The position numbers were made by a program, and so were the translations under genes. The notes under the pieces were generated by a model. The model searched no databases, was not told the DNA's origin, and was given only the letters and a program-made list of their open reading frames with translations. 64,000 bases of DNA from Takakia lepidozioides (lineage: Eukaryota; Plantae; Bryophyta). How positions within the stretch are numbered: position 1 is the stretch's first letter; each line of letters starts with the position of its first letter. The stretch spans positions 25,482,001-25,546,000 of the forward strand of contig CM060734.1 in assembly GCA_030704615.1 (NCBI GenBank). The letters run 5' to 3'. This document shows, piece after piece, positions 8,160 through 60,199 of the stretch.

Positions 8160-8340
8160 CTCTAAGAGTCCTTGTGGGACTCTTTTAACGGTAAGGTATC
8201 GCACATAAACAGTCCCCCAAGGACTCTTCGAACTGTTACGTGTTCAAAGAGTCTTTGGGGAACTGTTTATGTGCGATGTCGCGCAAAAAGATTCCTTTTT
8301 CTCTCCATGGATGTAAGAGTTCCCCATGACTCTCTTCTTT
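8160..8340. repeat. Cluster of AAGAGTCC(TTGGG/CCCAA)GGACTCTT palindromic motifs
   Basis: 8163-8231 is approximately the reverse complement of 21696-21765, and the motif core occurs in alternating orientation. Confidence 0.75.
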
Positions 8341-13115: not shown

Positions 13116-13639
13116 TGTAACTCTTGGCTAGCTGCACTTCCAACCAGATTCAATAGTTTAAACAGGGAATTCCTGAAGAGATAGAGACAAACAATATGAA
13201 TAGCTGCTCCTCTGCCTCAATCTGAATAGCACAGAACAATGCAACGCAATGCATCCTAGCTTTGGGTTCTGTCTACATACTTCTGCAACCTCTGGCAGAT
13301 CCAGCTGGAAATAGTTTCAACGGAATAGTCAGGGTTTGTGCTATCTCATAGGGGATTGCAATCTCTTCCACTTTTATGAAGGGATCACTTGTGATGACAG
13401 CCCGTGCAGCATACTTACCACTTCCACCCAGAATGTTGTGGATAAGGGAGGTAGCAGAAAAACCTTGACCGGCTCGACTGATATGAGTATCATGTGTTCA
13501 CAAGATGGTCGCCAGACAAATAGGAAACGAGTGCAAGGGAAAACTGGAGAGGCCTTGATGTAACCAAGGAGTCGACACTATCAGTCGATACTAAAAGGGG
13601 GAAAGGGAACGGGAAAAGCATGCTTCGGAAAGGCAGCAA

Positions 13640-21635: not shown

Positions 21636-21695
21636 TCTCGTGCAAGGGCAGAGAGACAAAAGTGAATATGTGTACCTCATGCGGTTCGCGCGGCG

Positions 21696-21990
21696 CGAAG
21701 AGTCCTTGGGGGACTGTTTATGTGCGATACCTAACGGTTCAAAGAGTCCCCCAAGGACTCTTTCTGCCCGACTCCCCGTTACCTAACGGTTCAAAGAGTC
21801 CTTGGGGGACTCTTTTTCCCATTACCTAACGGTTGGAAGAGTCATTCGGGGACTCTTTTTCCCCGTTACCTAACGGTTCGAAGAGTCCTTGGGGGACTCT
21901 TTCTCCTCGTTACCTAACGGTTCGAAGAGTCCTTGGGGGACTCTTTTCCCCAATACCTAACGTTTCGAAGAATCCCCCAAGGACCCTTTC
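21696..21990. repeat. Tandem array of ~7 x ~43-bp units with palindromic AAGAGTCC..GGACTCTT core
   Basis: Unit TACCTAACGGTTCGAAGAGTCCTTGGGGGACTCTTTT repeated; the core flips orientation in some units. Confidence 0.9.
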
Positions 21991-27571: not shown

Positions 27572-27889
27572 ATATTGCTACTCAGCTTCGACGATGCTTT
27601 GACATTTCTTCGCATTTTTGCTCGATTTCTCTTCTTTGTTCACTCTCAGACAATCACGTCACATTTGTGTGCATTTGCAATGCACGTGCATGCATGGCAA
27701 CCCTACAACTAAAGCTTCCGCTACACAACTACATCGCTGTCCAAAACCACACAACACATGTGCACACCACACACTAGTATACCACTAGTCCACCACTAGT
27801 CTAGCCACTAGTCCAACCACTAGGCTACAACTAGTCAGTCACTAGGCTGCCACTATGCTGCCCACTATGGCAATCACTAGTCCACACAA

Positions 27890-28216
27890 TGATAAAGAAG
27901 AAGAATACAAGCACAAGCTCATGCGAGCTCACAAAGCTGAAGCATAAACTCATGCATATATAACCTCATCACTCAAATACAAGTCAAGCCAAGTGCACCC
28001 CACGCCATGGGGAATCCACACTATGGCGCCATAGCTAGGCGCGGTGAGGCTCAACTCGAGAAAGATGAGCCTCCCGTGCTTGCCGTGAAGATAACCACTC
28101 CAAGGCCTAAATCTACCTTGACCCCTGGTTTGACACTTGGGCCAATCCCAAATGTCAATATGTAAAAGCTAGCTATTTCCTAGCTAGTTTCACACTAGTG
28201 GTAAATTAACTTGACA
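27890..28216 (-). repeat. Terminal repeat A (3' copy), TG..CA
   Basis: Near-identical to 38757-39080 (plus strand TGATAAAGAAG...AACTTGACA). Confidence 0.95.
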
Positions 28217-28218
28217 GT

Positions 28219-28394
28219 TGTCGTGTGCATACATATTGCTACACAACTACATCGCTGTCCAAAACCACACAACACATGTGCACACCACACACTAGTATAC
28301 CACTAGTCAACCACTAGTCCAACCACTAGGCTACAACTAGTCAGTCACTAGGCTGCCACTATGCTGCCCACTATGGCAGTCACTAGTCCACACA
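28219..28394 (-). repeat. Terminal repeat B (176 bp, TG..CA, rich in CACTAG), directly after the polypurine tract
   Basis: Repeated at 27720-27888 (lacking ~20 bp) and full length at 55530-55705. Confidence 0.92.
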
Positions 28395-28655
28395 ATCGCC
28401 CCCTAGCTGGTGCTTAGGTCCCTCTAAGTCCAGGTAGCCACAAGATGTGATAGTGACCATAGCCTCACTAAGTCCTCCACCACTATCCATACGACACTCA
28501 AACTCGATAGATCAAGAGGCCGGGTACAAGAGTTGCCCCATCGTTAGTCGCCGTCTTGCAACCTGTGAAGTTGAGCTTGGGATCTCATGTATTGACTCCT
28601 ATGAGCTTGGCCTCTCATGTCTTGTTAGTTGCCTCCAGTCATGTCCACTGCCACT

Positions 28656-31500
28656 ATCCCAAGCAGTGTGGACACAACCAATCTCCGTCAGGAACCTTCT
28701 CAAGAGGTGGTGTCAAGCATCCCATATGCCAACCCCTTGAGCATCAATCACACACTAGCATGGTGGCTGCCCCTTTGGCAGACCCACAGAGCATGCACCT
28801 CAAACCTGCAGGTACCACTGCTAAGTTTCGGTCAACTCTGCCATTGACATTGGGAAGGTGACATGGCGCACAATTACGCACATGATCCTTCCAAGTCATG
28901 CCATCCCGACCCTCCAAGATCAGGACCCCTGAGGGCAACACCTCTCAAACCCTCAGAATAACACGCCCTGCAGTAACATCCAGAGTCGTAGGAGCAGTCT
29001 GCTGCAAATAAACATAGTCACCAGGGACGATATCCTCCAAACCCCAGGACGATATCCTCCACCACGTATAGTGGCATACCTCAACGTATCACGGTGCTGT
29101 GCAATGACAAGGTTCTCAAAAGCCATGGGCATGACTTTCTTGAACAACTCTGCACGCTGATCATATGCACGTACCCACACGTCCGGATCATTAAGGTTAA
29201 GGACTTGAGCAGTGTCCCTACAAATGGCTGCAGGCAAATCCGGCTCTCGGCCAAAGAGAAGGAAATATGGTGAGAAGGAGGCAAGTGATGCTTGTTTGCT
29301 GAACCTGTAGCCCATGGCTAACCAAGGAACCTGAAGATCCCAATCTCCTAGGTGTCCCTTCTGCAAGCCATACTTGTGCAAACCCCTCTTCACCGTCTGA
29401 ACAACTCTCTTTGCTAAGCCATCAGCCTCATGATAATCCCGAGAAGTGGTGCGGTGGTCTATCAAGGCTTTATCACACAAAGCCTGAAACTCCCCCAAGA
29501 ACTCTCTCCCTTGGTCCGTGAGTACCTCAGCTGGAGCACCAAATCGGCTAAGCACACAATCCAAGAATGCATACGCAGCCCCCTCACTAGCTTTGTTAGG
29601 CAATGGAACCAACTCAATCCACTTGGAGAAGTGCTCCACCATCACCAACACATATCTGTGGTGGCGCATAGTCAGTGGCAACACATACCTGTGCACGCTG
29701 TGTGGGGTGAGGCACAATCCTCACCCGACCATCCTCCCACACTCGAAGTAGGTGTATCCCCTCCCACTTGAACCTCTTGGCTCGTTGCAGGATCCGATCC
29801 CTCTCCTTGGCAGTCACAGTGTCTCCCGTGTCTCCCGTGTCTCATGTGCGGAGGTAGTCCAACACAGCCGAATCCTCATGTATATCTCTGGCACCACCTG
29901 ACTCATCACTAGCCTCAGGGTCCTCAGACACTCCGTCTACAGTCATCCCTGTTGTAGGTCCAACCTGACCTCCCGATGCCAAGATACACAAAAATGCAGA
30001 TGCGTGCCATCCCGACACCATCTCCTCGTCCGTCTCACCATGCCACCGAGCTCCAATGTCATCCTGCTGGCTCATGCATGGATTGCGACTCAATCCATCC
30101 GCATCCCGATTGACCAAACCCGGTCGATGCACAACCTGAAAGTCATACTCCTGGAGTATGAGTTGAGTGGCTGGTGATCCGTGACAAGGGTGAAAAGATT
30201 GCCGTATAGATAGCACCTGAAGTGTGCCACGGCCCACATTGCAGCTAAGCACTCTCCCTTATATGAGCTGTACTTAGCCTCTGCAGCGTTGTTTGAGCGG
30301 CTAGCATAAGCCACTACGAACTCTCTTCCCTCATCATCCACCTGTGTGAGCACCGCTCCAAGCCCCACATGCTCCAATCCGTATGCAGCTGAAAGGGACG
30401 CCCCCTGATAGGTCGTCTCAGGATAGGCGCCGAGGTCAACCTCGCCTTGAGCTCTTGAAAAGCTCGTTCCTGCTCATCTTCCCACTGCCACTCCTGGTCC
30501 ACCTTGGTCAGCTTGGTTAGAGCCTTTGCAATGGTACTAAATCCCTTGACAAACCGTCTATAATAGTTTGCCAACCCCATGAAAGCTCGAACTCGGCTCA
30601 CATCCGTGGGGCGTGGAATTTGTGCAATGGCCTCTACCTTAGTCTGCTGTACCCCCAATCCTCCAGGATATATCATGTGACCCAGATACTCAATCTGGTT
30701 GTGGAAAAACTTGCATTTCCCCGGACAACTTCAATCCGTGCGCTCTCAAGCGCTCCAATACCACCTGAAGGTGTTTCTCTGCTCCTCCATCGTAACACTA
30801 AAGATGATGATGTCATCTATGTAGCACCGAGCAAAGTCCACCCCTGCTAGAATCCTATCCATGACTCTCTGAAACTCTGCAGGAGCATTCTTAAGCCCAA
30901 ATGGTAAGAACCGCCACTGATATAGGCAATCCTTGCCGTGCTCATTGATCCCCCAGAATGTCGTCTTCTGCTTGTCCGCCTCCTTGATGGCAACTGGTGA
31001 TATCCGGATCGTAAATCCAAAGTGCTAAAGACCTTAGCATGCCCGATGGCATCAAAGATCTCATCTGGTGTTGGCATGGCATACTTATCGGACTTGGTCT
31101 GACGATTTACAGGCCGGTAATCACCGCACATACGTCTCTCCCGTCCAATTGCCATAGACATTCTTCTTGGCTGGCATCACTGTGGCTGAAGCATACTCTC
31201 CACTAGAGAGCTCCAACAAACCAGCCTCCCAGAGATCTTGAGTCCTTATCTGAATCAAAAGACCTCTCCATGTCACTGTATCTATAGGGTCTCCGAAAGA
31301 TTGGCGTGTCAGTGGCCAACTCAATACGGATCTCTTGACCCTTCAGTGCTCCCAAGTCCTTCAAACTGAAGGCAAAGCAATTCCTGTAAGCCCTCAGGAA
31401 CCGCCGTATACGTCGTCTCTCTCCTCCGGTGACAATGGGTCCAATGTCAGGCTCCCAATTGTCCTCCGTAACTGCAACCTTAAGTCCAGTGGGCTTAGAG
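28656..31500 (-). pseudogene. pol 3' part: RT, RNase H, DDE integrase, C-terminal PHD finger (frameshifted, internal deletions)
   Basis: CGDYRPVN..FSTLDLRSGYHQ, YIDD, FMGLANYYRRF, LHTDWS, VEHFSKW..FGAPAEVLTDQGREF, and PHD [38 protein letters not shown]. Confidence 0.9.
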
Positions 31501-31523
31501 ATAGAGGACGCGTCCTGTGGTTG

Positions 31524-33041
31524 CTATGTTGCAACCTCTTGAGCAGTACTCCCTACTTGCTCAGTCAATGACAAGGCCTCATCCTGCCCCATCATCTCAT
31601 CCTCAAGGACTTCCTCCACTCGAGAAAAATCCCCAACCTCATCTTTCATCGCCACCTTGGCTGCCAACTCCCTCTGAACCTCGAGCACCTCCCACGTGTG
31701 CCATGGATGCCTGCACCCCGTGGTCCTCACATGCTCGCCCCCACTCACTGCCTGTACCGTCTCGGTAGGCAGAGAGACCATTGAGGGAAGTGTACTCCGC
31801 ACTTTGCGTTGCTCAGCCATAGCCAAGCTGATAATCCAGGTCAAGCAATTGAGATCCATTGCTTGCCCCAACACTTGACGACGTGATGCCTCAGAAAGAG
31901 ACGACACCGCCGTGGTACCAGTGGTAAAACCCATTGCCCGCTCACGCTCGTCAGCATTAGGCTCCACTAACTGCTGCAACTGAGCATCCCACAGGAGGCC
32001 AGGTCCACTATCCCGGAAAGCATGCGATCCTGGGAAGCTGAGCAGTGTAGGTAATGCTGCTCGTGGTTGACCCACCTTGTTGACCACTGCCAAAGGCGAA
32101 CGGTCATCATGTCTCACACGCTGAGACTGCCTCCCTGTGTCCAGAATGCTATCCACTGTGAGATGTGCTGGCCGCTGCACCCCATCAAATGCACGCTTGA
32201 GCAGTGCGGGTGGCATCAAGTTAGTCCACCATAGCCGTGGACGATGAGCCCGTGACCCCACTGTAGCTGTATCTAGCAACACTGCTGACCCAAGCCACGA
32301 CCGGACTTGATGCACACTGGCCATCACCCTGGCCCGAGAATCGCCCATCAGTGGCACATTCTCCAAGATGTATGCTGGAGATACAGCTTGATGAAGCTGC
32401 AAGTGGCGCAAAACCCGCACCATCTCCCAAAACAGACCCGACCTCGAGTCTCGCAATCCATTGCCATGCCCGGCTGATGAATGCCCTTGGCAGGGCCAAC
32501 CTGCCACTACCAGATCAATGGAGCCAACCCGCTCCAAATCCTGCGCCCCCAGCAACGAAATGTCTGCTGGCAAGGCCTGCTGATATCCACGAATTGCAAA
32601 CACTGACAACAACTCAGGGTACCGCTGCACCAACTGAGCAACATGGCGAAGTGAAACGTGTCGTGCAGTCTCATCCCTCTCCACATACAGGTAACGCCGA
32701 ACTCGTACACCTGCCTGTAACACAGCAGCCAATCCGGTGCTGATCCCGCCAAACAAGTCCAGAAGACAAATGTCTTCATCCGGATACTGCCACACAATAG
32801 GTGTGGTGTCCAATGGAGACAACTGAGGTGGTCCTGGTGCAATCCCCCACTCTCCTCCTCTCTGACGGTACAAAAGCCTCCACCCAGGCTTGTTGCACCC
32901 GTCGATCAGCATCCCGCTGCAAATCCTTGCTCGTGCCCCACAATGGAGTCTGAGCAACCATGGTAGGCAACTCCGCCATACCATACATGTCATCCTGCTC
33001 TCCCGGAGGTGGTACATCCTCTGAATGAGCGTTGCCCTCAA
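31524..33041 (-). CDS. C5 cytosine DNA methyltransferase domain (DNMT3-like) embedded in retrotransposon pol
   Basis: Uninterrupted 505-aa frame with motif I LLDLFGGISTG, II YVERD, IV AGWPCQ (catalytic PC), VI YILENV, VIII AHRPRLWWTN, IX ERERAMGF and X RRQVLGQAM. Confidence 0.93.
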   Translation of the reverse strand: MRATLIQRMYHLRESRMTCMVWRSCLPWLLRLHCGARARICSGMLIDGCNKPGWRLLYRQRGGEWGIAPGPPQLSPLDTTPIVWQYPDEDICLLDLFGGISTGLAAVLQAGVRVRRYLYVERDETARHVSLRHVAQLVQRYPELLSVFAIRGYQQALPADISLLGAQDLERVGSIDLVVAGWPCQGHSSAGHGNGLRDSRSGLFWEMVRVLRHLQLHQAVSPAYILENVPLMGDSRARVMASVHQVRSWLGSAVLLDTATVGSRAHRPRLWWTNLMPPALLKRAFDGVQRPAHLTVDSILDTGRQSQRVRHDDRSPLAVVNKVGQPRAALPTLLSFPGSHAFRDSGPGLLWDAQLQQLVEPNADERERAMGFTTGTTAVSSLSEASRRQVLGQAMDLNCLTWIISLAMAEQRKVRSTLPSMVSLPTETVQAVSGGEHVRTTGCRHPWHTWEVLEVQRELAAKVAMKDEVGDFSRVEEVLEDEMMGQDEALSLTEQVGSTAQEVAT

Positions 33042-33054
33042 GCAACTCTCTAGG

Positions 33055-33672
33055 TCAACTCACTGCCGCTGTGAATGCTGCTAGTGTCGGCATCTTGCCT
33101 CGCTGGGCAACCGCAACTCCTCCTATGAACGTCACAGGGAGCTGCACACGCCGGCCCTCCCCTGACTGCCATGCAGGCCTATAGGAAGCTGACTCCTCCC
33201 AAAAATCCAGGGTGAAGCCCATGGGGTACAACACTGCCCCACCAACCAGGACATCGTATGAGACCGCGTCTGTCACAATGGCCTTGGCTCGCATCACTGA
33301 GCCATCTGTAGGGTGATCCGGCCGTAGTCTGATAGCCAACTCACGCCGTGTCATGCCCCGAGCCTGCTCCAATCCTCCCAGAGACGTCTGTATCTGGAAA
33401 GGACAAGGCTCCATATCCGCCTCCGTGAGGCCCAAGCCTGCAATAGCAGCTCTGCCCAGCATCAATGGCTGAGCTCCCGAGTCCAACAAGACCCGCAGTG
33501 GCCGGTACCTCTTGCCTGCCGGTCCACTCAAACAGAAAATGTCATCCTGGTTGTCTAACATGACAACTCCAGGTGTCACCATGGCGCGCTCAATGGCTGG
33601 CCTAGCTGGCAGTTCCATCAACCTGGCAGCTGCAGCTTGCCATGGCGCCGCCGTGGCAGTCTTGACCCTCAA
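33055..33672 (-). CDS. Retropepsin aspartic protease
   Basis: VLLDSGAQ active-site motif and YDVLVG flap-distal motif. Confidence 0.85.
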   Translation of the reverse strand: MRVKTATAAPWQAAAARLMELPARPAIERAMVTPGVVMLDNQDDIFCLSGPAGKRYRPLRVLLDSGAQPLMLGRAAIAGLGLTEADMEPCPFQIQTSLGGLEQARGMTRRELAIRLRPDHPTDGSVMRAKAIVTDAVSYDVLVGGAVLYPMGFTLDFWEESASYRPAWQSGEGRRVQLPVTFIGGVAVAQRGKMPTLAAFTAAVS

Positions 33673-35670
33673 ATCGAGGATCCCTCCGGCACTACACCTC
33701 CCACTATCTCCGCAGAAGATGAAGTAACCTCCCCACTCTCACAGAGTGTAGCTGCCAGCCTGAACACCTCAGCTGTCTCCCCCGGCGTCGCAATCATGGT
33801 AGCCGAGAACAATGGAGCCTGGCACACAGATGTGGCCGCTCCTAGCAGCACACTAGCTGTCGTAGCCTTGGCAACACTAGGTAGTGGTGCTACCCGTGTA
33901 GCTCTCCCCAATGGCATAGTAACCTCCGCCTCGGTAACAGTCGGGCGAGAACTAGGTGCCATGGATGGCGTCGACACTGTCTCCGCCAATGTGAATGACT
34001 GAGGAAGCCTAGCCTGACGGCTTGCCTCCTCACGCTGTGGATCCAACTCCACCTCTGCACCTCGTGGCTCAGGAACTTGTGCTGCTCCTCGAGTCACGGC
34101 TGCAGCAGACTCCACCTGCACTAGTGGTAGTGCTGCTCCACACATGAATCCCATGCCTCCCATATCTCCTCCCTCAGGAGCAGGAGGTGGACCATCCGGC
34201 CTTAGAGCCGGTACCACCTGAGCTGTAGCCATGGCAGCGAGCCTCTGCTCTAGCTGCTGAAGCCGGTTGGCCATGCCTTGGTCAACACCCTGACCTCCGC
34301 GTCCTTGGCCATGTTGAGCTTGCCCTTGGCCTACACCTCGTGGCTGGCCACCTCGTCCTCTTTGGGCTGCTCCACCTCGCCCCCGGCCACCATTGTTCCC
34401 TTGGAACTGGCCTGGGCGCAACTCAGGATGCAAACCATAACACTGGGCCTCTCCATGCCCGTGCTTGCCACAATGCCCACACTGCAACTGTGCAGGCTGT
34501 GCATGTGCCGGCCCTTTGCCTCCCTCTGGGCAATCCTTCTTGACATGGGGTCCTCCACATGTCCAGCACACCACTCCGCCCATGTTGGCCAGCAAATGAA
34601 GGGAGAGACCCCTGCATCTGAGGTCCTCTCTGCCCTTCCCTGAGCTTCACCTGAGCCCCCTTGTTGCCTTGAGCACGTTGAGGTAGTGGTTGGCTAGGAG
34701 CACCACTACCCCGTGGTGTCTCCTTAGCAAATCCCACCATGACCACTCGTTCCTCCACCATGTTGAGCTCTATCCGCTCTGCCAGCAAAAACACATTTGC
34801 TAAGGTGGGTTGGGCCGCTTGTAGGAGAGTTGCATCCCGCACCCTTCTCCTCAGCTCCTTGTCCAATATCCCATACCAGAATTGGACTGCCTGAGCTTCC
34901 GTAACCCCTTGGGTTACATTTATCAAGCGCCTCATGCGAGTGAAAGCCTCCCTCAAGCTCTCAGTCGGCTTCCGTTGGAACTCTTGCAAGCTCCGCAACT
35001 TCTCTGTCCTCACCCCTTGGTAGTTCCCTCTCAACTCTTCGAAGAACTCCACAACAGGGTTGAAGGCAGGCACGGGTACTAGTGTTGGTGCGGTAGTGGC
35101 TTGGGTGGACGTCGTAGCTACTGTACCACCAGTCCCACTAGTCCCACTGCTACTTGCTGAAGCTGCCGGTGCAGCGGCAGGTGTAGCCACTGCCCTCGTG
35201 GCTCTAGTGCCCCTAGTGATGGAGACATAGTCGGGTGACCAGTACATCCTCCACTCCTCGATCTCAACCTCATGCCCCCGCCTGAACTCATGGTAATCAT
35301 CCATAAGCGGCCCCTCAAGGTGCTGAAACAGCCCCTTCCATGCCATGAAAGGCGTAAATAGTTGTGGATTGCGCATTTGCTGCAAATCACACCAACTATC
35401 AAACTCTTGGATAAAATCATCCAACTCGATGGTGCCCACCGCCCCAGAGTACCTTCGTGGCCCCTTGGTAGCTCCATACATCTCCTCCATTGTGTCCCAC
35501 AACAATGGCAAAGAAACAACTTGCACCGCCGGTATGAGTCCTCCTGATTCACAATCCGAATCAGAACCTTCCGTAGAAGACACAGGAGGTGAAGGTGGCC
35601 TAAACCGCACACCTCGTCTCGTGTACCCACTAGTATCGCTAGTGCTCGAACCGGCACTGTCCCCTAGCAA
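33669..35670 (-). CDS. gag with two CCHC zinc knuckles (frameshift near 34590)
   Basis: Capsid-like FQRKPTESLREAFTRM, then CWTCGGPHVKKDC and CGHCGKHGHGEAQC. Confidence 0.85.
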
Positions 35671-36359
35671 CTAGTGGCACCTCCGTGTTGACACTCAACC
35701 GGTCATGAACATGTCCCTAACCCCCTCTCCACAAGGTAACGGGTAGAGAACCTGTTGCGGCTTAGGTTTGGAATACTAAGTTCCTAACATAGCCTACACC
35801 TGTACCTGCATCCACCGCAAGCACTCCTATGGTTGGCTGGTCATCACCTCCAACCTCACCACAGGAGAAACAATGATGGTCTGGCTGGTCATCACACCCC
35901 CAGCCTCACACCATCGACAGCATGCTCTAGGACTGGCCGGTGATCAAATCCGGACCAATCACCTATAAAAACAAGCGCCCACACAAAACTAGCATGGCGC
36001 ACAGTCAAGCATGCAGGTATGGAGGGGATCCAAACACAAGAAATCAGAACGACAACTCCCCCACACCCAAAACAACTCCACGGTGTTGCTCCTGCAAGAA
36101 CACCCCAGCCCAAACCCGGACTGACTCTTGCCTCCACCTACTGAAAGGTCTTGGCCTAATGAGAGGGTGGAAACTACGAGGAAGAAGCTAAAGCAATGCC
36201 TACCCCAGCATGCCCTCATCCCAACACTCTTTCTCTCCTCTCTCTCTTCCCTCACTTGCATGACCATGGGAATATCATGAAGATACTCCTCAAACCGCCC
36301 TCCACGAGCTTCAAAATTCGGCTTCAAGACCACATGCCAGTCCTTAGGTAGTCCACCAG

Positions 36360-37385
36360 TGCCTCACGAGTCAGCACAGGCCGTCCACAGGTCAACACGG
36401 GCCACCACAGACCAGCACACACCCACACAGCTCACTGGTCACAGCCGTCACAGCACCCATCACAACCCCAAAGACCACAGGCACAGCCTGTCACAGCCCT
36501 ACAAAGGTCACAGGTCACAGCCCCAAAGGCCACAGCTGTCACAACCCCTCACCCACAAAGTCACAGCCACAGCCTGTCACACACCCACAGCCCTCCCACA
36601 CAGGGTCACAGCCCTCACAACGTCACACAACACCGTCAACAGCCTGTCACAGCCCTCACAGCCCTATCACAACCCACAGGCCACATGGCCAACCTGTCAT
36701 AGCCCCTCATAGCCCTACAAAGGTCCACAGGGGTCACACAGCCTCACAGCCCCTCACAGCCCCACAGGCCACATGGCATAGCCTGTCACAGCCCTTCACA
36801 GCCCGCCACTCACACACAGCCCGTCACACACAGCCCCACAGCCATGGGCACAACCTGTCACAGCCCTCACAAACATCCCCACAACCACAGGGCACAGCCT
36901 ATCACAGCCCGTCACAAGCCCCACAGTCCACAGGGCCAGCCTATCACAGCCCCTCCAGCCCGTCACAGCCCCACAGGCCATAGGGCACAGCCTGTCAGCC
37001 CCCACAGGCCACAGGCCACCAGCCTGTCACAGCCCCCACAGCCCATCATAGCCTTCACACAGCCCATCACGCCTGTCCACAGCTCGCCCACACAGCCTGT
37101 CACAAGCCCCTCACAGCCCATCACACCCCACGGGCCATAGGGAACAGCCTGTCACAACCCCTCACAACCCCACAAGCCACATGGCACAGCCCGTCACAGC
37201 CCCATAGGCCACAGGCACAGCCTACCACAGCCTGTCACAGCCCATCATAGCCTGTCACAGCTCGCCTCAGCCTGTCAGAGCGTCACAGCCCCACAGGCCA
37301 CAGGGCACAGCCCGTCATAGCCCCACAGGCCACTGGGCACAGCCTGTCACAGCCCCTCACAGCCCCACAGGCCACTCATGACAGT
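36360..37385. repeat. Low-complexity (CACAGCC/GTCACAGCCC)n tandem array in the retrotransposon 5' leader
   Basis: About 1 kb of degenerate CACAGCCTGTCACAGCCC repeats. Confidence 0.9.
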
Positions 37386-38756
37386 TTAGCCATTTCTCCA
37401 AGGGGTTTAGCCACGCCAAGCTAGGGTTTGTGTCTCTTGGACTCTAGGCTTCTTTGCACCGAGCTATGGCGGCTGTGAAGAAATCAGCAAGGTATTCTTG
37501 CTCTTTCGGCTCCCACACACCACCAATAGTAGACCTAAGCCATGAGGAAGATGGTTGCCACAAACCAAGCCTTCTTTCTCACTTAGACTCCCCAAACACG
37601 CCACTAAACTCAATGGCAAACAACCAAGCCTTGCTGGTTTCCAGCCCTTGTGAGCACTCATTCAAGCGTTTCCCTTGGCCATAGCATCTGTCTTAGAGCC
37701 TATTCCAGCCCCTACACCTGCCACTTCAAGAGCCATGCTCTATCTAGGCTTGAGGTTGAAACCCCAACTCAGAACACGCTCTACAAGTGTCGGACTGTCA
37801 CATAAGAGCAGATCAGCCCCTTACCTTCTCTTCTAGTTCTCTAAAGCTTGAAAACAAAAGCCCAATGGACTGAAGGCATGCTCCACACATGCCCCACTCT
37901 CACCACCAGAGAATCAGCCCCTTTGCTTTCTTTCTTGCACCCACCAACCTGAAAATACACGCTTCAGCGGGCTGGAAGCATGCTCCACACATGCCCTACA
38001 GGGAAACCAGCCCCTTCCTTCCTTTCTTGCACTCCCAAACCTGAAAGTACAAGACTTCAACAGGCTGAAAGCATGCTCCACACATGCATTGCTCTCACAT
38101 AAGGGAAGTCAGCCCTTCCCTCTTCCTTGCTTGCCCTCCAAGCTTGAAGATGGAAGCTTCAATGAGCTGAATACATGCTCCACACATGCAACCTCTTCAC
38201 ACAAGAGGTATCAGCCCCCTATCTTGGCTCCTTAGCTCCTTGATGCTCTCTAAGACAAGACTAAGCACTCCACAGCCCTTGCCAAGCCCCTGAAACCCTA
38301 AGGCTTACATTTCCAGCCGCAAGACACTCCTCTTGTGGTGCAAGAGCTCTTCTTCCAAGCTCTGAAACCCTAGGTGTACATTCCATGGCCTTGCCGCACC
38401 TCTTAGCTCTTGTTCCAGCCCTGCTCTTGCCATGACAAGAGCCCTCTCAATGCTGAAGCTCGAGATTGAAACCCAATCTCAACATACTCCACAAAGTGCA
38501 CTGATTTGCCCCAAGCCAAATCAGCCCTTTCGCTTGGTCTTGCAATCTTGCAGCATGGTGCTTTCATCTCTGAAGCTGAAGATCAAATGCCAAGGTCTAC
38601 CACCTCGTAACCCACATCGCCTCCGCTTCTAACAACCAAGAGCTCCACGGTGCTCCTTGCATAACAACCTGGTTTCTCTCATTCTCAAGCAAAAACCACA
38701 AGTGCTACAAGTAACTCGTATCTGGCACTCACAGATACGAGCTCATCTTTCTCGAG

Positions 38757-39080
38757 TGATAAAGAAGAAGAATACAAGCACAAGCTCATGCGAGCTCACA
38801 AAGCTGAAGCATAAACTCATGCATATATAACCTCATCACTCAAATACAAGTCAAGCCAAGTGCACCCCACGCCATGGGGACCCACACTACGGCGCCATAG
38901 CTAGGCGCGGTGAGGCTCAACTCGAGAAAGATGAGCCTCCCGCGCTTGCCGTGAAGATAACCACTCCAGGGCCTAAATCTACCTTGGCCTTCTTTGACAC
39001 TTGGGCCAATCTCAAATGTCAATATGTAAAAGCTAGCTATTTCCTAGCTAGTTTCACACTAGTGGTAAAATAACTTGACA
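38757..39080 (-). repeat. Terminal repeat A (5' copy)
   Basis: Direct repeat of 27890-28216. Sense reads TGTCAA...TTATCA. Confidence 0.95.
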
Positions 39081-39106: not shown

Positions 39107-39900
39107 CAATTGAAGTAGCAGGGATGGATTGTGGGTCCAGGTTCAGCCGAGAGGGGCAAATTTCAATTGAAGTAGCAGGGATGGATTGTGGGTCCAGATT
39201 CAGCCGAGAGGGGCAGATTTCAAGAACAAGCTAGAGTACCCTGATTCCCTGTGGATTGATACCTCCAACAAACCTGAATGGTAGATGGTCAACTGGAAGC
39301 AGTAGCAACGACACACTTTGACTACACACACAAGCAACACACACAAGAGGTCTTTTTGGGTTGACAGTCAAATCCTCCATGAGTCATGACACAACGTCGA
39401 GGACAATGTGGTGAGGGCACCTTTTTCTTCAACCTATTTCTGTAAGGTGCCTTGTTGGGTGGATATGTGGTGGTTTGGGGTGAATTAGACAAGATTCTGC
39501 CGATGTGGCAGCATGAAAGTATCCCAAAACAGACATGAGGAGAAGCATTGCAATGAACACTTTTCCAACCCCACTCAATGGTGGGACAATGAAGACAAAA
39601 AGGTGAATGCTCGTTGGACTACGGTGAGAAGCATATGCAATTCAGAATTGGAACCACCGTAATAAGTAGGGTTGGGGTGTTTGCTGGAAGAACTTCACGT
39701 CGTCAGTGTCAGCTGCTAGGAGCTTTGCCTCCAATGTATTCATGATTTGTACACAGGCAGGGAAGGACAAGGGATAGAGGTCCAGATTCATCGAAGAGGG
39801 CCGGATTTCAACCCCAACATTACTTCTGATTCCCTATGGATCAGTAGCTACAAGAAATTGGCGTGGGTAGATGGTCAACTGGAAATAACAGCGGCAACAG
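39107..39900 (+). pseudogene. OSB-type PDF-motif gene relics
   Basis: PRGADFKNKLEYPDSLWID, FSNPTQWWDNEDKKVN, and RGPDFNPNITSDSLWISSYKKLAWVDGQL. A ~57-bp tandem duplication lies at 39107-39220. Confidence 0.7.
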
Positions 39901-39959
39901 CACAATTGATAGAAGAAGGCACCTTCTTCAGCACATTTCAAGGACAAGGAAAATGTGGT

Positions 39960-42900
39960 GAGGCAATCCCCTATGACATAGCACAAACCCTGACTATTCC
40001 AGAGAGAGTCACCAGCTGGACTGCCAGAGGTTGCAGAAGTATGAAGACGGAACCCAAAGCTAGGAGCTGTCCAGGGGAACAGGTGTTGTCAGGATAGTAA
40101 GAGACGTGGTTCACCTGTCGCTTTGCCAGCACCCACCAGCTGGAGATATGTGATATAGTTCACCGGCGCCTCCGAAATGGAGATTTGGTGTATGCCAATG
40201 GGCCACCATCAGTCCATGCGCACTCTCCAATGGCCTAACAAGTGGTGTTACACTCAGGTATCGTGCTGGCGATAAATCCAATGATTTGTCCTCCATACAA
40301 TGCAGATTTTGATGGGGACATTCTTTCACCTTTTCGTTCCACAATCACTGGAAGCCATGGCTGAACTACAAGAGCTGATGACACTGCAACAACAAACGAT
40401 CAGCTCCGAAGGAGGGCAGCCGCTACTTGGACTTAGCCAGGATACTCTGCTTGCTGCTCACTTGATAACTAGCACTAAGGTGCTATTGGACAAAGTTCGT
40501 TTAGTGCAACAGTTGACTATGTGGGCATCGGTCCCACTGCTAGAAGAAACTATCGTCAAATCGCTTGAAGGAGGCCTTTCTAGACTGGAGTTCAAATGTA
40601 TGTGTTGACATTGCCAGCAGGTCTTGACCGAATCAGCTGATGACAAGGTTCTCATCAGGAATGGCGAGATTTGAAGTGCACCGACTCCAAATGGCTGCAA
40701 GGAGGTAATGACAGGTGGGGCGAAGAGGAGCCCTAGAGCTGTTAAAAGTCAGCCAAACGCATTCTACATACCTGGCTATCATTGCAAGGCTTCAGTGCAA
40801 GGCTGCCCGATTTCCTTGTGCCCTTGGACTCAAAGTAGAGACAGAATATGTTGTGCGTTGTCAACATTGAGTGTCTTGAAAGGGCGATGTACCAAGCTGT
40901 GGAGCAGATGCGATGCCTAATCATCCATGAAAGTGGATTTTGATCAATGCTTTGGTAGATCTATCGTTGACCTGACGAGCTTCACCAAAAAAGTGACTAA
41001 CGTGGAGGATGCCATAAAAAAGCATTTGAAGCCTCTGCTGCCCACATAGAAGATATTCTCTCTAATACCATGCAGGGTGGTGGAAGCTCACTGCTTGATA
41101 TGGCGAGGTCAGGAAGCAAAGGTTCTACGCGTAAACTGGTGGAGCAGTGTGCTTGCATGGGGCTTGAGCTATATAAAGGTGAGCATCTGCTTCCCTTCGC
41201 ACGAGTGCAACATGAGGCAAAGACAAAATTTCAACTGACCAAATGCTGGGAGGCTCATGGATTTGTACAAGGATCATTGGTAGATGGATTGAGAATTTTG
41301 GAGCTTTTCAACCACACCATTGCCAACAGAACTGGCATACTTCGCAAACATGTAGAGGTGATACAACCGGGAACTCTTTTCAACGCCTTTTATATGCTAT
41401 TCCTCAGAGATACATATTGCGTATGATGAAATTGTCCGTAGTCAGTAGTGGGCAAAATATTGTACAGTTCTGTTATGGTAGCTTCGACACAATGGACGAG
41501 GGCGGAAGTGACTCTGTGCAGGGGTTCAAATGGAGTCAGTCAAAACTGGCAAGTGAAGCAGTTGGAGTGTTGGCAGCCAGTGCCATATGTCAGGCAGCTT
41601 ATGAGGTTATGCTGGGATAATCCTTACTTGAGTGGGTCTTTCAAACATCGGCGGCTCGAGCGCGTGCAGGTATTTGAGTACCACTAAAAGGGCCATCTTC
41701 GTTTGAGAGCCTTAGCATGTGAAGTGCATAATCTAGTCTCACCTGCTGCAGATTTGGTGCATTTGATTTATGGAACCTGTTTACAAATATAGAGGACTGC
41801 TCTTTGAAGTCATTGGTGGACTAACATGTGCTCGTGCAAACCACAGGAACTCCATATCCCTGGTTGATGAATGCGTCATGATTAAGCTTGCCTTATGTGA
41901 CTGCTTGAAGCCTTGGTGTCACGAGAAGAAAGTGCTTGAAGTTCAAGACCACTTATGGAAGATTCCTCTCAAGATGCTTGTAAGGAAGCTCACTAAGAGG
42001 GGGATAAATTATAGTCATTTAATTGGTTTTACCATAGGCTTATGACTACATATATTGTGCCCAATGCACGTTATTATGCAATGTGCAGAAGGGGCCCATT
42101 GGGGTAGGGAGCATGAAGTATCAGTTTGGTAAGGAAGACAAAGGACCTGCCGGTAGCATGGTTTTAACTCCTCTAGTGTTGCAAGTTACTGGGTTGTCTC
42201 TTACCATGCATTCCACCCTGAAATTTTCATGTCTGTGCTCTAATAAGTGTTACAGAGTGGTTTTTGCATGCTCTCATATGATGAATCACTTGTTATATAC
42301 GAGGTTGGCAGGTTTTGGAACATGAAGAACCTCCGTGTGGGAATGAATGGTGCATTGGTGCGTTTGGCAGGGTCAACTGGGTTGGGTGTGTTGGGTTGTG
42401 AAGGGTAATATTCCCACCTGCAATTATATTAGGACAACCTCATGCCCGAGGCTTGGTGCCAAGTGATCCCTTTCAATGTTGTATGCGATGTCAGGGATGT
42501 ATGAACCTCAAGGAGAGAGCCCTAGATAGATGCAACAACTGGTGGGTGTGAGTGCATGAGCTGCAGCCAGAAATGTTCTTCCATAAATCCAGTATTCTAG
42601 GAACTGCCTGCAACGCAATTTCAAAAATATAACTTGGTGTAGACCAACATCTTTGCCTCTCTCTGCTTGTGCCAGCTCTTCTCACTACCCCCAACTCTGT
42701 TGTTTTTCAGTACTTGAACCACATATGTGAAAACTGATTATGACAATTGTGTTGAGAATTTCAGTGAGGGAAATGCCTCATGAGAGGCCACCCTTATTAA
42801 AAATAACATTGTCAATGGCAGTGGCAGATATGAAATGTGAAGTCTTTAGTCATGTCGATCCATGGATGGAAGGAAAATGAAGAGTGATTCTCCAAATCTA

Positions 42901-44394: not shown

Positions 44395-45611
44395 TTAAGC
44401 CATTCCATACACGCCCTCACCATCCGTAATAGCAAGCATGATTTTGCTGGTCATGGATTTCATGGTATCATAGTTGGGTATCATGAACTCCTGAAAACAT
44501 GTCCGAGCAAAAGGTAATGATAGTTTGGATATCGACGCATCATGCACAATGGAGATTTTGTCAACCTCCGAGAAGTAATGAGAGTCTATGATGAACTTGT
44601 GGAGACGATGTCTTTCATAGAACGTCATTGATTTCACAAGCTCCTCGAACCAAGAACATAATTGTACTGGAAAATCAGGGCTATATGTGCAAGACAATAG
44701 AAATTCATCCGTTGTAAAAGTCAGTTTTGCATTGAATACAGTGAGTAATGAGGTCACTGTCAACTGTGTCTTCACTTCAAATTGCTTCAGATCGTTGAGC
44801 ACATCCTGTGAGATTCGACCGGTATCATCCTTTTCTAAACTGTTGATGGCAAAGTAGAAACCTCTCTTAGAACTGCTCCAGTTGCAGAACATTTTGTAAA
44901 TAACAAATATTTCATGATGGATCTGTAAGTTGAATCAATTGAGCAAGGGGATCCCTCCACTTGAGATTTGTCCTTCACTTCCATCTTCAAGATGAACACT
45001 ATAATGTCCTAGAAACGATCATCCGTAATAAGTTCTTGTCTATACTCTTCTTTGGAGGTCTCATCTTCCATATTCTTGAGAACCTGGAAAGCATGAACAT
45101 GGTTGGGAAAACGCTCATTCATGTCTCTTTCATACAATAACAGCGTCTCCCGATTTACTCCTGTATCCCAATTTGGAATATCTCTGGTTGCATGGGCCAA
45201 TGTGCTCGTTGCTCAAAACCTCATTGTCTTTCAAATGATGGACAACACGGCGTATTTGGGGATTGCCAAAGACTGAGTGAACACACTGCACATGACAAAG
45301 GATATGATTATAAATTGGATCTATACCATTAAGCAACTACAACAACAATGTAATATAATATACACACACCCTATATGATAGATTATTAAAATGCTTACCC
45401 CTGAGTTATTGAAAAATTATTTCCATGCGGACGTTAAAAATTTTCGAGTAGGACCACCGATGTCAGTAGTGCCTTCCTCCAGAATACTGACTCCATTATG
45501 AAATTGGGATATTGCTATGTACTTCACAAATAACATTGGAATGCACAGTCCATCTCGGTTTTGGCCATCGAAGAAAGTCCATAATGTCTCCAACTCCATC
45601 CCTGCCTTCAC
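44395..45611 (-). pseudogene. Divergent HECT-domain E3 ubiquitin ligase (3' end of a longer degraded gene extending to ~48634)
   Basis: HECT N-lobe EEGTTDIGGPTRKFL and C-lobe WFEELVKSM..LHKFI..LPFARTCFQEFMIPNY..KIMLAI..GVYG with the catalytic Cys retained. Confidence 0.75.
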
Positions 45612-46679
45612 CTTTCAGCCAACGTAAGCAAATGGGTAAGAATTACTCGAGCAGTTTATCATGATTTAAATGCATGAAGCACCATCTATGGATTATAGGC
45701 AGATGAAATGAAACCACCTGTAATTCAGTTTTGTCCAACTGAAGTGCCGCAAGAGTGTAGGTAGTCATCCTATGTTTCAAGTGATGTTGTATGTGGGCTT
45801 CATATGCATCACCACACTTTCAATGCAATCCTTAGTTGTATGGCCCTCATGTCGATTTTTTGGTTGTCCTCCTTGTATCCATCCATTGCTTTGGTATAAT
45901 TAGCTTGTCTGGAAACCATAGCCTCCAGTCCCAATAAGCTTACACCCTTCGCTTTTGGCATCTCCTTGACTACTTGCCACAATTCAGCAGCTGACATGCT
46001 ACCAATTATAAATTTGCCATCGATTAAACTTGACAGTAATTCCCATTCTTCCCAATCAGGTTTTGCATGCCCTTCAAAGATGCTTTGTATTTCATATTTT
46101 GAGAACACAGACAATGACGGGTTGTTCTCCAACAAAATCTCCAAATGAGTATCCACGAGTTCATCACTTAGGCCAAGGTGATCGTTTCATCTTCCAAGCA
46201 ACATAGCCAATGTTGAGCTTGCTGCAAGATCACTCTTGTCTATTTCATGTTGTGAGCTCTCCATGCATCTGTAAAGGTTGTCCCATTTGATGAGCTTGTC
46301 AACATGTACATGGGGGTCACAAGTAGAATTAAAACCTTCTAACATTCCTTCACCAACTTGCAAAATTCAACATGAGAATTTAGGGACGACTCTGATAACA
46401 GGGAAAAACAAGGTGAAATGTGTTGAAGAAGGTGCCTTCATTGCAGTGCCTTGTTCTATCGATCCGAAATTGCATCTGCTTCTCTCTGTAGCCCAACAAG
46501 CATGCACCTTTTTGTCTCCATTGTCCCATCATTGACTGGGGTCGGAAAAGTGTTCATTCGAAAGCTTCTCCTCATCTCTGTTATCTGTTTTTGGATACTT
46601 TCCTGCTGCCACATTAGTAACTTGTCAAAGTCACTCCAAACCACCACAGATCCACCCAACGAGCTAACTTACAGAATTC

Positions 46680-55529: not shown

Positions 55530-57384
55530 TGTCGTGCGCATACATATCACTACACAACTACATCGTTGTCCAAAACCACACAACACATGTGCACGCCACA
55601 CACTAGTATACCACTAGTCCACCACTAGTCCAATCACTAGGCTACAACTAGTCAGTCACTAGGTTACCACTATGCTGCCCACTATGGCAGTCACTAGTCC
55701 ACACAATCCCAATCTCCTAGGTGTCCCTTCTGCAAGCCATACTTGCGCAAACCCCTCTTCACCGTCTGAACAACTCGCTCTGCCAAGCCATCGGCCTCAG
55801 GATGATCCCGAGAAGTGGTGCGGTGGTCTATCAAGGTTTTATCACACAAAGCCTGAAACTCCCCAAGAACTCTCTCTCTTCGTCCGTGAGTACCTCAGCT
55901 GGAGCACCGAATCGGCTAAGCACACGATCCAAGAATGCATACGCACCCCCCTCACTAGCCTTATCAGACAATGGAACCAACTCAATCCACTTGGAGAAGT
56001 GCTCCACCATCACCAACACATATCTGTGGTGGCGCATAGTCAGTGGCAACGGTCCTGCGAAATCAAGATTCCACCTGTAGCCCAATCCCATGATTGATAA
56101 AAGATGCAACTGTGGTGTAGGGGCGTTGAATGAAGCACACACCCTGTCACACACCATGCACCTAGCCACGAACTGTTGCACCTCTGTGTACATACCACGC
56201 CACCAATATTGCCCCTGCAGTAAACTGTGAGTGCGTCGCATTCCAAAATGCCCCAACTCTTCATGGGCATGCCTCACTAACCGTGCACGCTGTGTTGGGT
56301 GAGGCACGATCCTCACCCGACCATCCTCCCATACTCGAAGCAGGTGTATCCCCTCCCATTTGAACCTCTTGGCTCGTTGCAGGATCCGATCCCTCTCTCT
56401 GGCAGTCACAATGGCTCTCGTGTCTCCCGTGCGGAGGTAGTCCAACATAGCCGAATCCTCATGTATATCTTTGGCACCACCTGGCTCATCATTAGCCTCA
56501 GGGTCCTCAGACACTCCGTCTACAGTCATCCCTGTTGTAGGTTCAACCTGACCTCTCGATGCCAAGATACACAAAAATACAGATGCGTGCCATCCCAACA
56601 CCATCTCCTCGTCCGTCTCACCATGCCACCGAGCTCCAGTGTCATCTTGCTGGCTCGTGCATGGATTGCGACTCAATCCATCCGCAACCCGATTGACCAA
56701 ACCTGGTCGATGCACAACCTGAAAGTCATACTCCTGGAGTATGAGTGCCCACTATGCAAGCTTCCCCGTAAGCTTGTCTGACTCCATCAACCACTTGAGT
56801 GGCTGGTGATCCGTGACAAGGGTGAAAAGATTGCCGTATAGATAGCACCTGAAGTGTGCCACGGCCCACACTGTAGTTAAGCACTCTCCCTCATATGAGC
56901 TGTACTTAGCCTCTGCAGCGTTGTTCGAGCGACTAGCATAAGCCACTACGAACTCTCTTCCCTCATCATCCACCTGTGTGAGCACCGCTCCAAGCCCTAG
57001 CATGCTCCAATCCGTATGCAGCTGAAAGGGACGCCCCCTAATAGGTCATATCAGGATAGACGCCGAGGTCAACCTCGCCTTGAGCTCTTGAAAAGTTCGT
57101 TCCTGCTCATCTTCTCACTGCCACTCCTGGTCCACCTTGGTCAGCTTGGTTAGAGCCTTTGCAATGGCACTAAATCCCTTGACAAAACGTCTATAAATAG
57201 TTTGTCAACCCCATGAAAGCTCGAACTCGGCTTACATCCGTGGGGCGTGGAATTTGTGCAATAGCCTCTACCTTAGTCTGCTGTACCTCCAATCCTCCAG
57301 GATATATCATGTGACCCAGATACTCAATCTGGTTGTGGAAAAACTTGCACTTCCCTGGATGCAACTTCAATCCGTGCGCTCTCA
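55530..57384 (-). mobile_element. Second, partial copy of the DNMT-gypsy family (end of RT, RNaseH, integrase N-half, repeat B)
   Basis: High identity to 29340-30750. Retains the integrase HHCC (HAHEELGHFG..CMVCD). Ends at the full repeat B, 55530-55705. Confidence 0.92.
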
Positions 57385-60190: not shown

Positions 60191-60199
60191 ACGGTGTCC

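What the first reader, a model, noticed from the sequence alone, without database searches (positions are those of the whole stretch)
31524..33041. Gypsy retrotransposon encoding its own intact-looking C5 DNA methyltransferase between protease and RT
Seen: the core C5-MTase motifs (FGG, PCQ, ENV, RxR, motifs IX and X) lie in an uninterrupted 505-aa frame, while gag, RT and IN of the same copy are frameshifted. Known: DNMT-bearing retrotransposons have been described in dinoflagellates and charophyte algae. The motif style (AHRxRxxWxN, ExERxxGF) is DNMT3-like and not the circularly permuted DRM type. Inference: this lineage persists in a land plant (probably a hornwort) and may methylate its own cDNA or insertion site.
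Basis: partly seen in the sequence, partly recalled or inferred. Interest (0 to 1): 0.9.

Follow-up and report, generated by a model that had tools for sequence, protein, structure and literature searches.

The report
Bryophyte retrotransposon carrying its own DNMT3
This is a dead copy of an abundant jumping-gene family of mosses and liverworts that encodes its own DNMT3-like DNA-methylating domain, an arrangement I found in print only for algae; a conserved, likely leaky stop codon would make the enzyme as plentiful as the particle protein, where it likely methylates the element's new DNA copies.

Summary
The methyltransferase is real: all catalytic motifs are present and the fold is DNMT3A-like. 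It is no one-off capture. Relatives with the same Gag-protease-DNMT layout occur in Marchantia, Calypogeia, Riccia and Sphagnum, the family is very abundant in the host, and the domain is under purifying selection between lineages (dN/dS 0.08-0.19).

The known type is Klebsormidium KnitGypsy-Dnmt3 (PMC5890265); this scan also met the family in two moss genomes. Not found in print: (1) a conserved in-frame TAG-CAR-YY stop after the DNMT (53 of 58 loci), likely read through, so the DNMT ends the Gag-level ORF; (2) predicted self-priming; (3) a PHD finger on integrase; (4) ends A...B-A-B with 4-bp target duplications, implying integration at an internal CA-NN-TG site. The host is a bryophyte; 'hornwort' is unresolved. 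Enzyme activity and expression are untested.

The parts
38757..39080 (-). 5' terminal repeat A1 (324 bp, TG...CA); left end of the element
   Evidence: 315 identities, 9 mismatches and 3 gap positions against A2
38920..38933 (-). Predicted 5' end of the RNA (self-primer) inside A1
   Evidence: 14 of 14 complementary to the site just after A1; 0 of 300 shuffles reach it; transcription start inferred
38744..38757 (-). Predicted self-priming primer-binding site; no tRNA-type site is apparent
35700..38743 (-). Long 5' leader (about 3 kb) with short tandem arrays (36350-37400) and about 100-bp repeats (37812-38217)
34426..35670 (-). gag (Retrotrans_gag, weak) followed by two CCHC knuckles (about 34570-34435); frameshift near 34580-34620
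   Evidence: 61% identical to Marchantia P0003
33100..33680 (-). Aspartic protease (DSG near 33483); frameshift near 33675-33685 upstream
32780..33099 (-). Protease-DNMT linker, broken by a premature stop (33055-33057) and a frameshift (about 32845-32865)
31800..32771 (-). DNMT3-like C5 cytosine methyltransferase domain, all catalytic motifs present (PC at 32495-32490, ENV from 32363)
   Evidence: pLDDT 91.5; DNMT3A, E 2.6e-19, TM 0.70/0.82
31518..31526 (-). Conserved in-frame stop with readthrough-type context, TAG CAA CCA, ending ORF1 (Gag-PR-DNMT)
   Evidence: motif UAG-CAR-YYA from PMC3159437; readthrough inferred
30165..31523 (-). Reverse transcriptase and RNase H, in frame after the stop; six frameshifts and a deletion
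28900..29850 (-). DDE integrase; zinc-binding part deleted (near 29690), with stops and a frameshift
   Evidence: the second window copy retains the H2C2 domain
28657..28797 (-). PHD finger at the integrase C-terminus, with one premature stop
   Evidence: PF00628 E 2.7e-12, read with X at the stop; intact in L029 ORF2
28397..28405 (-). Polypurine-tract-like G run directly before B1
   Evidence: conserved in the loci; function inferred
28219..28396 (-). Repeat B1, ending in CA
28212..28223 (-). Internal near-palindromic B1|A2 junction GACA-NN-TGTC, predicted integrase attachment site
   Evidence: the same in L016, L022, L024, L048, L068, L070, L029, L041
27890..28216 (-). Repeat A2
27720..27889 (-). 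Repeat B2, right end of the element; its last 19 or so bases are missing, so no target duplication can be read in this copy
   Evidence: 157 identities, 2 mismatches and a 12-base gap against B1
55530..57384 (-). Second, 5'-truncated and internally deleted copy of the family (part of RT, RH, part of IN, B); does not reach the DNMT
   Evidence: 90-95% identical to the first copy

Best explanation
This is a decayed copy of an abundant bryophyte Ty3/Gypsy family whose first reading frame encodes Gag, protease and a DNMT3-like methyltransferase and ends at a conserved stop that ribosomes likely read through to make RT, RNase H, integrase and a PHD finger, so the methyltransferase would be packed into the particle at Gag-like amounts and likely methylates the new cDNA before it integrates. 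Shown: domain order, conserved stop and its context, family-wide presence, purifying selection, matching DNMT and RT trees, A...B-A-B ends with 4-bp target duplications. Inferred: readthrough; protease release of the domain; self-primed reverse transcription; an LTR that is functionally B+A (from the purine tract to the primer site); integration by opening an internal CA-NN-TG junction, most simply on a two-LTR circle; cDNA as the substrate. This copy cannot make the polyprotein.
For: DNMT3 fold and motifs; catalytic C kept in 65 of 70 and E in 65 of 70 copies scored. Family trait: named Marchantia, Calypogeia, Riccia and Sphagnum proteins, up to 75% identical; 177 confirmed matches in metagenome contigs, 80 kept; 117,231 contigs of one host run laid on the element, all 30 bins covered. 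Selection: DNMT dN/dS 0.12 (L029/L031), 0.11 (L029/L041), 0.08 (window/L017, dS near saturation), 0.16-0.19 (L006 pairs), like protease 0.11-0.23. The DNMT and RT trees give the same main groups. Stop: in-frame TAG/TAA-CAR-YY in 53 of 58 loci that could be anchored (41 TAG, 12 TAA), in four divergent lineages; L029 has open ORFs of 1369 and 1047 aa in one frame separated only by TAG CAG TTA; none of the listed variants falls in the nine bases in three of four runs, one being a run with 1,528 contigs laid; 28 of 28 chosen ORF1-type proteins end without RT, 72-157 aa after motif X in the 26 where the motif was found; the first Met of ORF2 is not conserved (residues 117, 14 and 48). Ends: 5 of 5 loci with both ends have perfect 4-bp target duplications. 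Primer-site complementarity is 14 of 14 in three lineages with different sequences.
Against: No activity, expression or proteomic data. The Klebsormidium domain did not methylate yeast DNA (PMC5890265, section 10). The large, Sphagnum-like clade has CAA CCC, not CAR-YYA; only 4 of 58 loci plus the window have the full motif, and that clade has an ATG right after the stop. Many loci are re-assemblies of the same insertions, so counts overstate independence. Within that clade dN/dS is 0.56 for DNMT against 0.38-0.45 for RT, RH and IN (decay after insertion inflates all). Primer-site complementarity did not exceed shuffles in 7 of 18 repeats and was marginal in 2. The mirror product of a symmetric circle opening (A-B-A at the 5' end) was seen in 0 of 17 5' ends. 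CpG depletion of the element (0.40-0.61) is like that of flanking DNA (0.53). More distant relatives have the DNMT in one ORF with RT and IN (P0284, P0333) or between RH and IN (Hariotina), so Gag-level dosage is not universal.
Confidence: 0.6

Rival explanations
1. The domain is kept by the family but does not act on its cDNA: it methylates the insertion site or other host DNA, or binds DNA or host partners as a targeting module or decoy.
For: No activity of the Klebsormidium domain in yeast. The integrase PHD finger points to chromatin targeting. The discussion of PMC5890265 leaves the role open.
Against: Catalytic P-C, E-N and R-x-R are kept across lineages only 40-50% identical, which argues for catalysis; fusion to Gag would place the domain with the cDNA.
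Confidence: 0.3
2. ORF2 is made by splicing around the stop, or from an internal promoter or start codon, not by readthrough.
For: The large clade has the weaker CAA CCC context and an adjacent ATG. In Tca2 an in-frame gag stop gave no readthrough in yeast (PMC2194720, passages).
Against: There is exactly one stop, always in frame and followed by CAR-YY while the flanking codons diverge. The full CAR-YYA motif occurs in three of four lineages. In L029 the first Met lies 117 residues in, past conserved RT-proximal sequence.
Confidence: 0.15
3. The A...B-A-B ends arise without a ligated two-LTR circle, through an extra end-to-end template jump by RT, or by a split-repeat route as proposed for DIRS-type elements; integrase still cuts at the internal junction.
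For: 0 of 17 5' ends show the mirror form expected from opening either junction of a circle. The A2|B2 join is nearly precise in most loci.
Against: L068 has filler DNA at the A2|B2 join, as end-joining leaves. Integrase cleavage of palindromic LTR-LTR junctions has precedent in foamy virus (PMC1180852, abstract).
Confidence: 0.45
4. This copy's methyltransferase has been domesticated or is kept intact by host selection.
For: No break in about 1.3 kb around the domain; the chance frameshift brings an upstream ATG into frame.
Against: The break-free stretch is within chance (P 0.086-0.33); the domain is cut off from gag by a stop and a frameshift; the terminal repeats differ by only 11 of 483 bases, so the copy is young; no introns; ordinary position among family members.
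Confidence: 0.04

Closest known systems
KnitGypsy-Dnmt3 of Klebsormidium nitens (de Mendoza et al. 2018, PMC5890265; seen: abstract, passages of section 9 with the Fig. 4 legend, sections 10, 11, 15, term search of 3 supplements; the figure and the large supplement were not seen)
   Same: Intronless, non-permuted DNMT3-like domain in a Gypsy element; Ka/Ks under 0.2; repeats described as DIRS-like with a Gypsy domain set, which fits A...B-A-B.
   Different: The host is a land plant. The paper places the DNMT in the Pol ORF; here it ends the Gag-protease ORF before a conserved stop. The passages read mention no readthrough, self-priming, PHD finger, target duplication or internal attachment site. 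No Klebsormidium sequence came up, so descent from the same capture is untested.
SymbioDIRS-Dnmt3 and SymbioLINE-Dnmt (same paper); EpiLTRs (bioRxiv 10.64898/2026.05.21.726589, passages)
   Same: Retrotransposons carrying C5 methyltransferases; SymbioDIRS-Dnmt3 methylates CG de novo in yeast.
   Different: Other retrotransposon classes or DNMT4-related domains, algal hosts; EpiLTRs also carry an adenine methyltransferase and a chromodomain.
Type I stop-codon readthrough (UAG-CAR-YYA of tobamoviruses; PMC3159437, passages); in-frame stops of MuLV, Tca2 and SIRE1 (PMC2194720, passages)
   Same: One in-frame UAG with CAR-YY after it, separating an abundant from a rare product.
   Different: The stop lies after protease and an added enzyme, not directly after gag or before env; the largest clade has C at the sixth position.
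Self-priming Tf1/Sushi/Tcn1 chromoviruses (PMC6317226, passages)
   Same: No tRNA primer site; complementarity between the primer site and a stretch inside the LTR; Tcn1 occurs in mosses and club-mosses.
   Different: A PHD finger instead of a chromodomain, permuted terminal repeats, a DNMT; RT placement against reference lineages not tested.
Foamy-virus integrase cleavage of palindromic two-LTR junctions (PMC1180852, abstract)
   Same: A DDE integrase acting on an internal palindromic junction.
   Different: There the cut restores a normal linear DNA; here the integrated form itself is permuted and the junction has a 2-bp spacer.

Membership tests
Streptophyte Gypsy-DNMT3 (KnitGypsy-Dnmt3 type) | DNMT3-like catalytic domain, not permuted, key residues kept | tested here: met
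Streptophyte Gypsy-DNMT3 (KnitGypsy-Dnmt3 type) | Intronless domain inside a Gypsy element (PR-RT-RH-IN order, DDE integrase) | tested here: met
Streptophyte Gypsy-DNMT3 (KnitGypsy-Dnmt3 type) | DNMT within the Pol polyprotein ORF | tested here: inconclusive
   In frame with RT but separated by a conserved stop; part of the polyprotein only if read through. Fig. 4c itself was not seen.
Streptophyte Gypsy-DNMT3 (KnitGypsy-Dnmt3 type) | DIRS-like terminal repeat layout | tested here: met
   A1...B1-A2-B2 in the window and in L048, L068, L074/L077; compared with the figure legend's wording only
Streptophyte Gypsy-DNMT3 (KnitGypsy-Dnmt3 type) | Purifying selection on the DNMT (Ka/Ks under 0.2) | tested here: met
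   0.08-0.19 between lineages; 0.56 among decayed copies of one clade
Streptophyte Gypsy-DNMT3 (KnitGypsy-Dnmt3 type) | Groups with the Klebsormidium sequences in DNMT and RT trees | not testable with these tools
   No named Klebsormidium protein among the 74 and 120 listed hits or 20 clusters read; trees lack host DNMT3 outgroups
Streptophyte Gypsy-DNMT3 (KnitGypsy-Dnmt3 type) | De novo methyltransferase activity | not testable with these tools
   Not shown for the Klebsormidium domain either
Plant DRM methyltransferases | Circularly permuted motifs | tested here: not met
   Motifs I to X in standard order; DRM entries match the N-terminal part only
DIRS (tyrosine-recombinase) retrotransposons | Tyrosine recombinase in place of a DDE integrase | tested here: not met
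   rve and H2C2 integrase domains; 4-bp target duplications in 5 of 5 loci
Tcn1/Tf1-Sushi chromoviruses | Self-priming primer site | tested here: met
   By sequence only: 12-14 of 14 in 9 of 18 repeats, beyond shuffles
Tcn1/Tf1-Sushi chromoviruses | Chromodomain at the integrase C-terminus | tested here: not met
   PHD finger, no chromodomain hit in L029 ORF2
Tcn1/Tf1-Sushi chromoviruses | RT groups with Tcn1 references | not tested
   No reference lineage sequences in hand
Type I readthrough signal | UAG-CAR-YYA, single and in frame | tested here: met
   Window, L006, L029, L031, L041; the large clade has CAR-YYC
Type I readthrough signal | Measured readthrough | not testable with these tools
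   Needs a reporter or ribosome profiling

The most novel reading that the evidence does not exclude
Bryophytes carry a Gypsy lineage with its own life cycle: a leaky stop loads every particle with a DNMT3 at Gag dosage, the RNA primes its own reverse transcription, the cDNA is methylated in the particle, and a PHD-guided integrase inserts it by opening an internal CA-NN-TG site of a two-LTR circle, giving permuted ends. That would be a natural retroelement that integrates routinely from a circle and arrives already methylated, open to study in Marchantia.
Probability: 0.25. Interest if true: 0.85.

Novelty: new variant of a known kind. Interest (0 to 1): 0.62.

Why it matters
Why a transposon keeps the enzyme that normally silences it has been open since 2018, and the described hosts are algae. 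The family sits in Marchantia polymorpha as several open Gag-PR-DNMT genes annotated as hypothetical or as methyltransferases, so the question becomes testable in a land-plant model with methylation mutants, and DNMT counts in bryophyte genomes may be inflated by these copies. The conserved stop predicts a dosage (DNMT like Gag, RT and integrase low) that favours action inside the particle. The permuted ends imply an unusual integration route, and standard LTR finders would likely misread the element's boundaries.

Tried and rejected
No whole genome is held for this window, so genome-wide copy number and orthologous insertions could not be examined. Viral contigs: no relative. Sequencing runs: no RNA holder listed. 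One run guessed to be RNA has a contig over the stop region (X15), but its type is a guess. Contig depth was not used as a copy number. One probe (DNMT) was in the wrong frame; only the repeat and other-domain results of that call were used. The window's RT dN is inflated by an off-frame stretch and was not used. The DNMT tree is the quick version, midpoint-rooted, with long branches for Closterium and P0073, two named rows left out for short coverage (P0040, P0169) and no host DNMT3; the window's broken RT was left out of the RT tree. CpG and CHG depletion do not single out the element. The Atlas search, run with the Calypogeia relative, only repeated DNMT3A-like fold and a mostly streptophyte cluster. 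Short A...B forms (10 loci, 9 sites) were considered as one-LTR-circle products, but L052 and L070 share a flank (605 of 620 identical) in short and long form, so loss by B-B recombination or assembly collapse explains at least that case. Literature: searches found no description of the family in bryophytes, of its stop or of its ends; passages of 10.1101/363937, PMC11982613 and PMC5009743 gave nothing on it. The library lacks most subscription papers and Repbase; two later papers say 'streptophytes', and supplements I could not see (the large file of PMC5890265, bioRxiv supplements, tree files) may already hold bryophyte sequences.

Full report
Observation. A stop-free minus-strand frame spans 33059-31527 and holds a C5 methyltransferase domain (PF00145, E 2e-12) with motifs I, IV, VI, VIII, IX and X in standard order. 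A frameshift-aware comparison with open relatives lists 16 breaks: 4 in Gag-PR-DNMT and 12 in RT-RH-IN-PHD. Family contigs of the host differ from this copy at both places. A break-free 970-bp core has P=0.086 overall and P=0.33 within ORF1. The copy is dead and its DNMT is not specially preserved. The terminal repeats differ at 11 of 483 aligned bases, so it is young, roughly one to two million years at about 1e-8 per site per year (rate recalled).

The domain. A profile of 36 relatives scores DNMT3A at E 1e-25, DNMT3B at 1e-23, DRM-type entries at 1e-12 to 1e-9 over the N-terminal part only, and HhaI at 7e-7. The model (pLDDT 91.5) matches DNMT3A best (E 2.6e-19, TM 0.70/0.82). The window keeps all 11 motif positions scored; across 70 copies the catalytic Cys is kept in 65 and the motif VI Glu in 65.

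Family and hosts. The closest named proteins are from Calypogeia fissa (75%), Marchantia polymorpha (many, 61-74%), M. paleacea, Riccia sorocarpa and three Sphagnum species; Closterium (38-44%) and the chlorophyte Hariotina are distant. Metagenome contigs gave 177 confirmed matches, of which the best 80 were kept. In one host run 117,231 contigs lie on the element, covering all 30 bins. In the quick DNMT tree the window sits in a 20-row clade (SH-aLRT 99) with all named land-plant rows, inside a 47-row clade (97); the RT tree repeats the main groups. dN/dS of the DNMT between lineages is 0.08-0.19, like protease and above RT (0.04 for L029/L041); among 43 decayed loci of one clade it is 0.56 against 0.38-0.45 for RT, RH and IN. 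The host is a bryophyte: five exons of its SPCS2 gene are 79-80% identical to mosses, 76% to Marchantia and 58-73% to vascular plants. An LCIB-like fragment leans to a hornwort, since LCIB was reported only in hornworts among land plants (PMC8075897, passages), but no named hornwort SPCS2 was available; I leave it open.

The stop. The frame ends at TAG CAA CCA and RT continues in the same frame. Of the 80 loci, 58 could be anchored at this junction; 53 have an in-frame TAG or TAA followed by CAR-YY (41 TAG, 12 TAA), and 5 do not. Many are re-assemblies of the same insertions, but the signal spans four lineages whose DNMTs are about 50-70% identical: TAG CAA CCA (window, L006), TAG CAG TTA (L029, L031), TAG CAA TCA (L041) and TAG CAA CCC (the large clade). 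L029 has open frames of 1369 aa (to the DNMT) and 1047 aa (RT-RH-IN-PHD) separated by this codon alone. In four runs laid on 201 bases, the only listed variant in these nine bases was in one low-depth contig; one row was not shown. UAG-CAR-YYA is the consensus for efficient readthrough in plant cells (PMC3159437, passages). ORF2 has no conserved start. I infer readthrough, which would give DNMT at Gag dosage and RT and integrase at a few percent. Against: the largest clade has C in the sixth position and an adjacent ATG, and Tca2's in-frame stop gave no readthrough in yeast (PMC2194720, passages). Distant relatives have no such stop (P0284, P0333) or carry the DNMT between RH and IN (Hariotina).

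The ends. The window reads A1 (39080-38757), coding region, purine tract, B1, A2, B2. The same layout is complete in L048, L068 and L074/L077. All 5 loci checked with both ends have perfect 4-bp target duplications outside TG... and ...CA, so a DDE integrase made the insertions. B1 and A2 meet at a near-palindrome, GACA-NN-TGTC, conserved out to L029 and L041. The bases after A1 are complementary to a stretch inside A: 14 of 14 in the window, L027, L048 and L029, with three different sequences, 12-13 in five more, marginal in 2 and no better than shuffles in 7 of 18. In L029 and the large clade it lies about 30 bases after a TATA-like box. This is the pattern of self-priming elements (PMC6317226, passages). 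Since the purine tract precedes B and the primer site follows A, ordinary reverse transcription would give B-A at both ends; the integrated A...B-A-B is a circular permutation of that, opened at the internal junction. A two-LTR circle is the simplest intermediate, with precedent for junction cleavage in foamy virus (PMC1180852, abstract) and filler DNA at the A2|B2 join of L068. But the mirror product was seen in 0 of 17 5' ends, so either one junction is preferred or the route differs. Short A...B forms are common (10 loci), and at least one is a reduced allele or an assembly collapse of the long form.

How it likely works. Shown: anatomy, conservation and selection. Inferred: Gag-PR-DNMT is the main product and is packed with the RNA; the protease frees the DNMT; it methylates the new cDNA, probably at CG as SymbioDIRS-Dnmt3 does in yeast, which could hide it from surveillance or set its silent state; the PHD finger guides integration. 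Activity is untested, and the Klebsormidium domain was inactive in yeast, a result its authors call inconclusive.

Against what is known. It works like KnitGypsy-Dnmt3 of Klebsormidium and meets four of its described features; ORF placement is inconclusive and shared descent could not be tested. It is not a DRM, a DIRS or a chromodomain-bearing Tcn1. Searches found no account of the family in bryophytes, nor of the stop, the self-priming or the permuted ends; two later papers speak of 'streptophytes' without detail in the passages seen, and unseen supplements or Repbase may hold more. Two earlier notes of this scan reported dead copies in moss genomes; they agree and are not independent evidence.

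Verdict. A real feature, a new variant of a known kind; interest 0.62. The copy itself is ordinary debris; the value lies in the family's presence in bryophytes, Marchantia included, and in the translation and integration features that make the role of the enzyme testable.

Noticed in passing
window 28660-31523 against 31527-35490: Breaks are unevenly spread in this copy: 12 in ORF2 (2.9 kb) and 4 in ORF1 (4.0 kb), one-sided binomial P 0.008. Perhaps descent through non-autonomous copies that kept Gag-PR-DNMT; unexplained.
   Followed up: partly
window 11881-12144 (-): LCIB-like beta-carbonic anhydrase fragment (PF18599, E 1.2e-5); gene structure not worked out; bears on the host lineage.
   Followed up: partly
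window 52593-55004 (+): Five-exon signal peptidase subunit SPCS2 gene, apparently a true host gene, just downstream of which the second element copy lies; used to place the host.
   Followed up: yes
window 39720-41617 (+), with inverted short copies near 11108-11215 and 13254-13298: Fragments of an RNA polymerase largest subunit (Rpb1 domains 3 and 4) amid short duplicated pieces; looks like captured, decayed gene fragments.
   Followed up: no
window 10225-10713 (+), 14748-15314 (-), 44398-44934 (-), 45812-46186 (-), 62404-62892 (+): Isolated fragments: KUP/HAK potassium transporter, a JmjC-like stretch (my reading, no Pfam hit), two HECT pieces, a DUF2921 piece.
   Followed up: no
window 1-2700: Tandem array of about 1,026-bp units, 97-99% identical, each with internal 120-bp subrepeats.
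   Followed up: no
window 21691-21989, inverted copy at 8157-8241; 57629-58012: 44-bp tandem repeats with a distant inverted partner, and a 100-bp tandem array next to the second element copy.
   Followed up: no
window 58581-60199 (-): Decayed gag, protease and RT-like fragments of what seems another retroelement (my reading; no Pfam hit).
   Followed up: no
run X8, matching window 31305-33568: A 2.3-kb piece of a family copy (57 differences) flanked on both sides by vector-like polylinker (recognised from memory), in a run labelled with another organism: a cloned fragment or contaminant.
   Followed up: partly
proteins P0057, P0269 (Hariotina reticulata) and P0046-P0065: A second architecture with the DNMT3-like domain between RNase H and integrase, plus PHD, in a chlorophyte; not seen in the papers read.
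   Followed up: partly
protein P0098: Labelled as a bacterial MAG protein but nearly identical to the retrotransposon DNMT of L031: probably plant or algal DNA binned into a bacterial genome.
   Followed up: no
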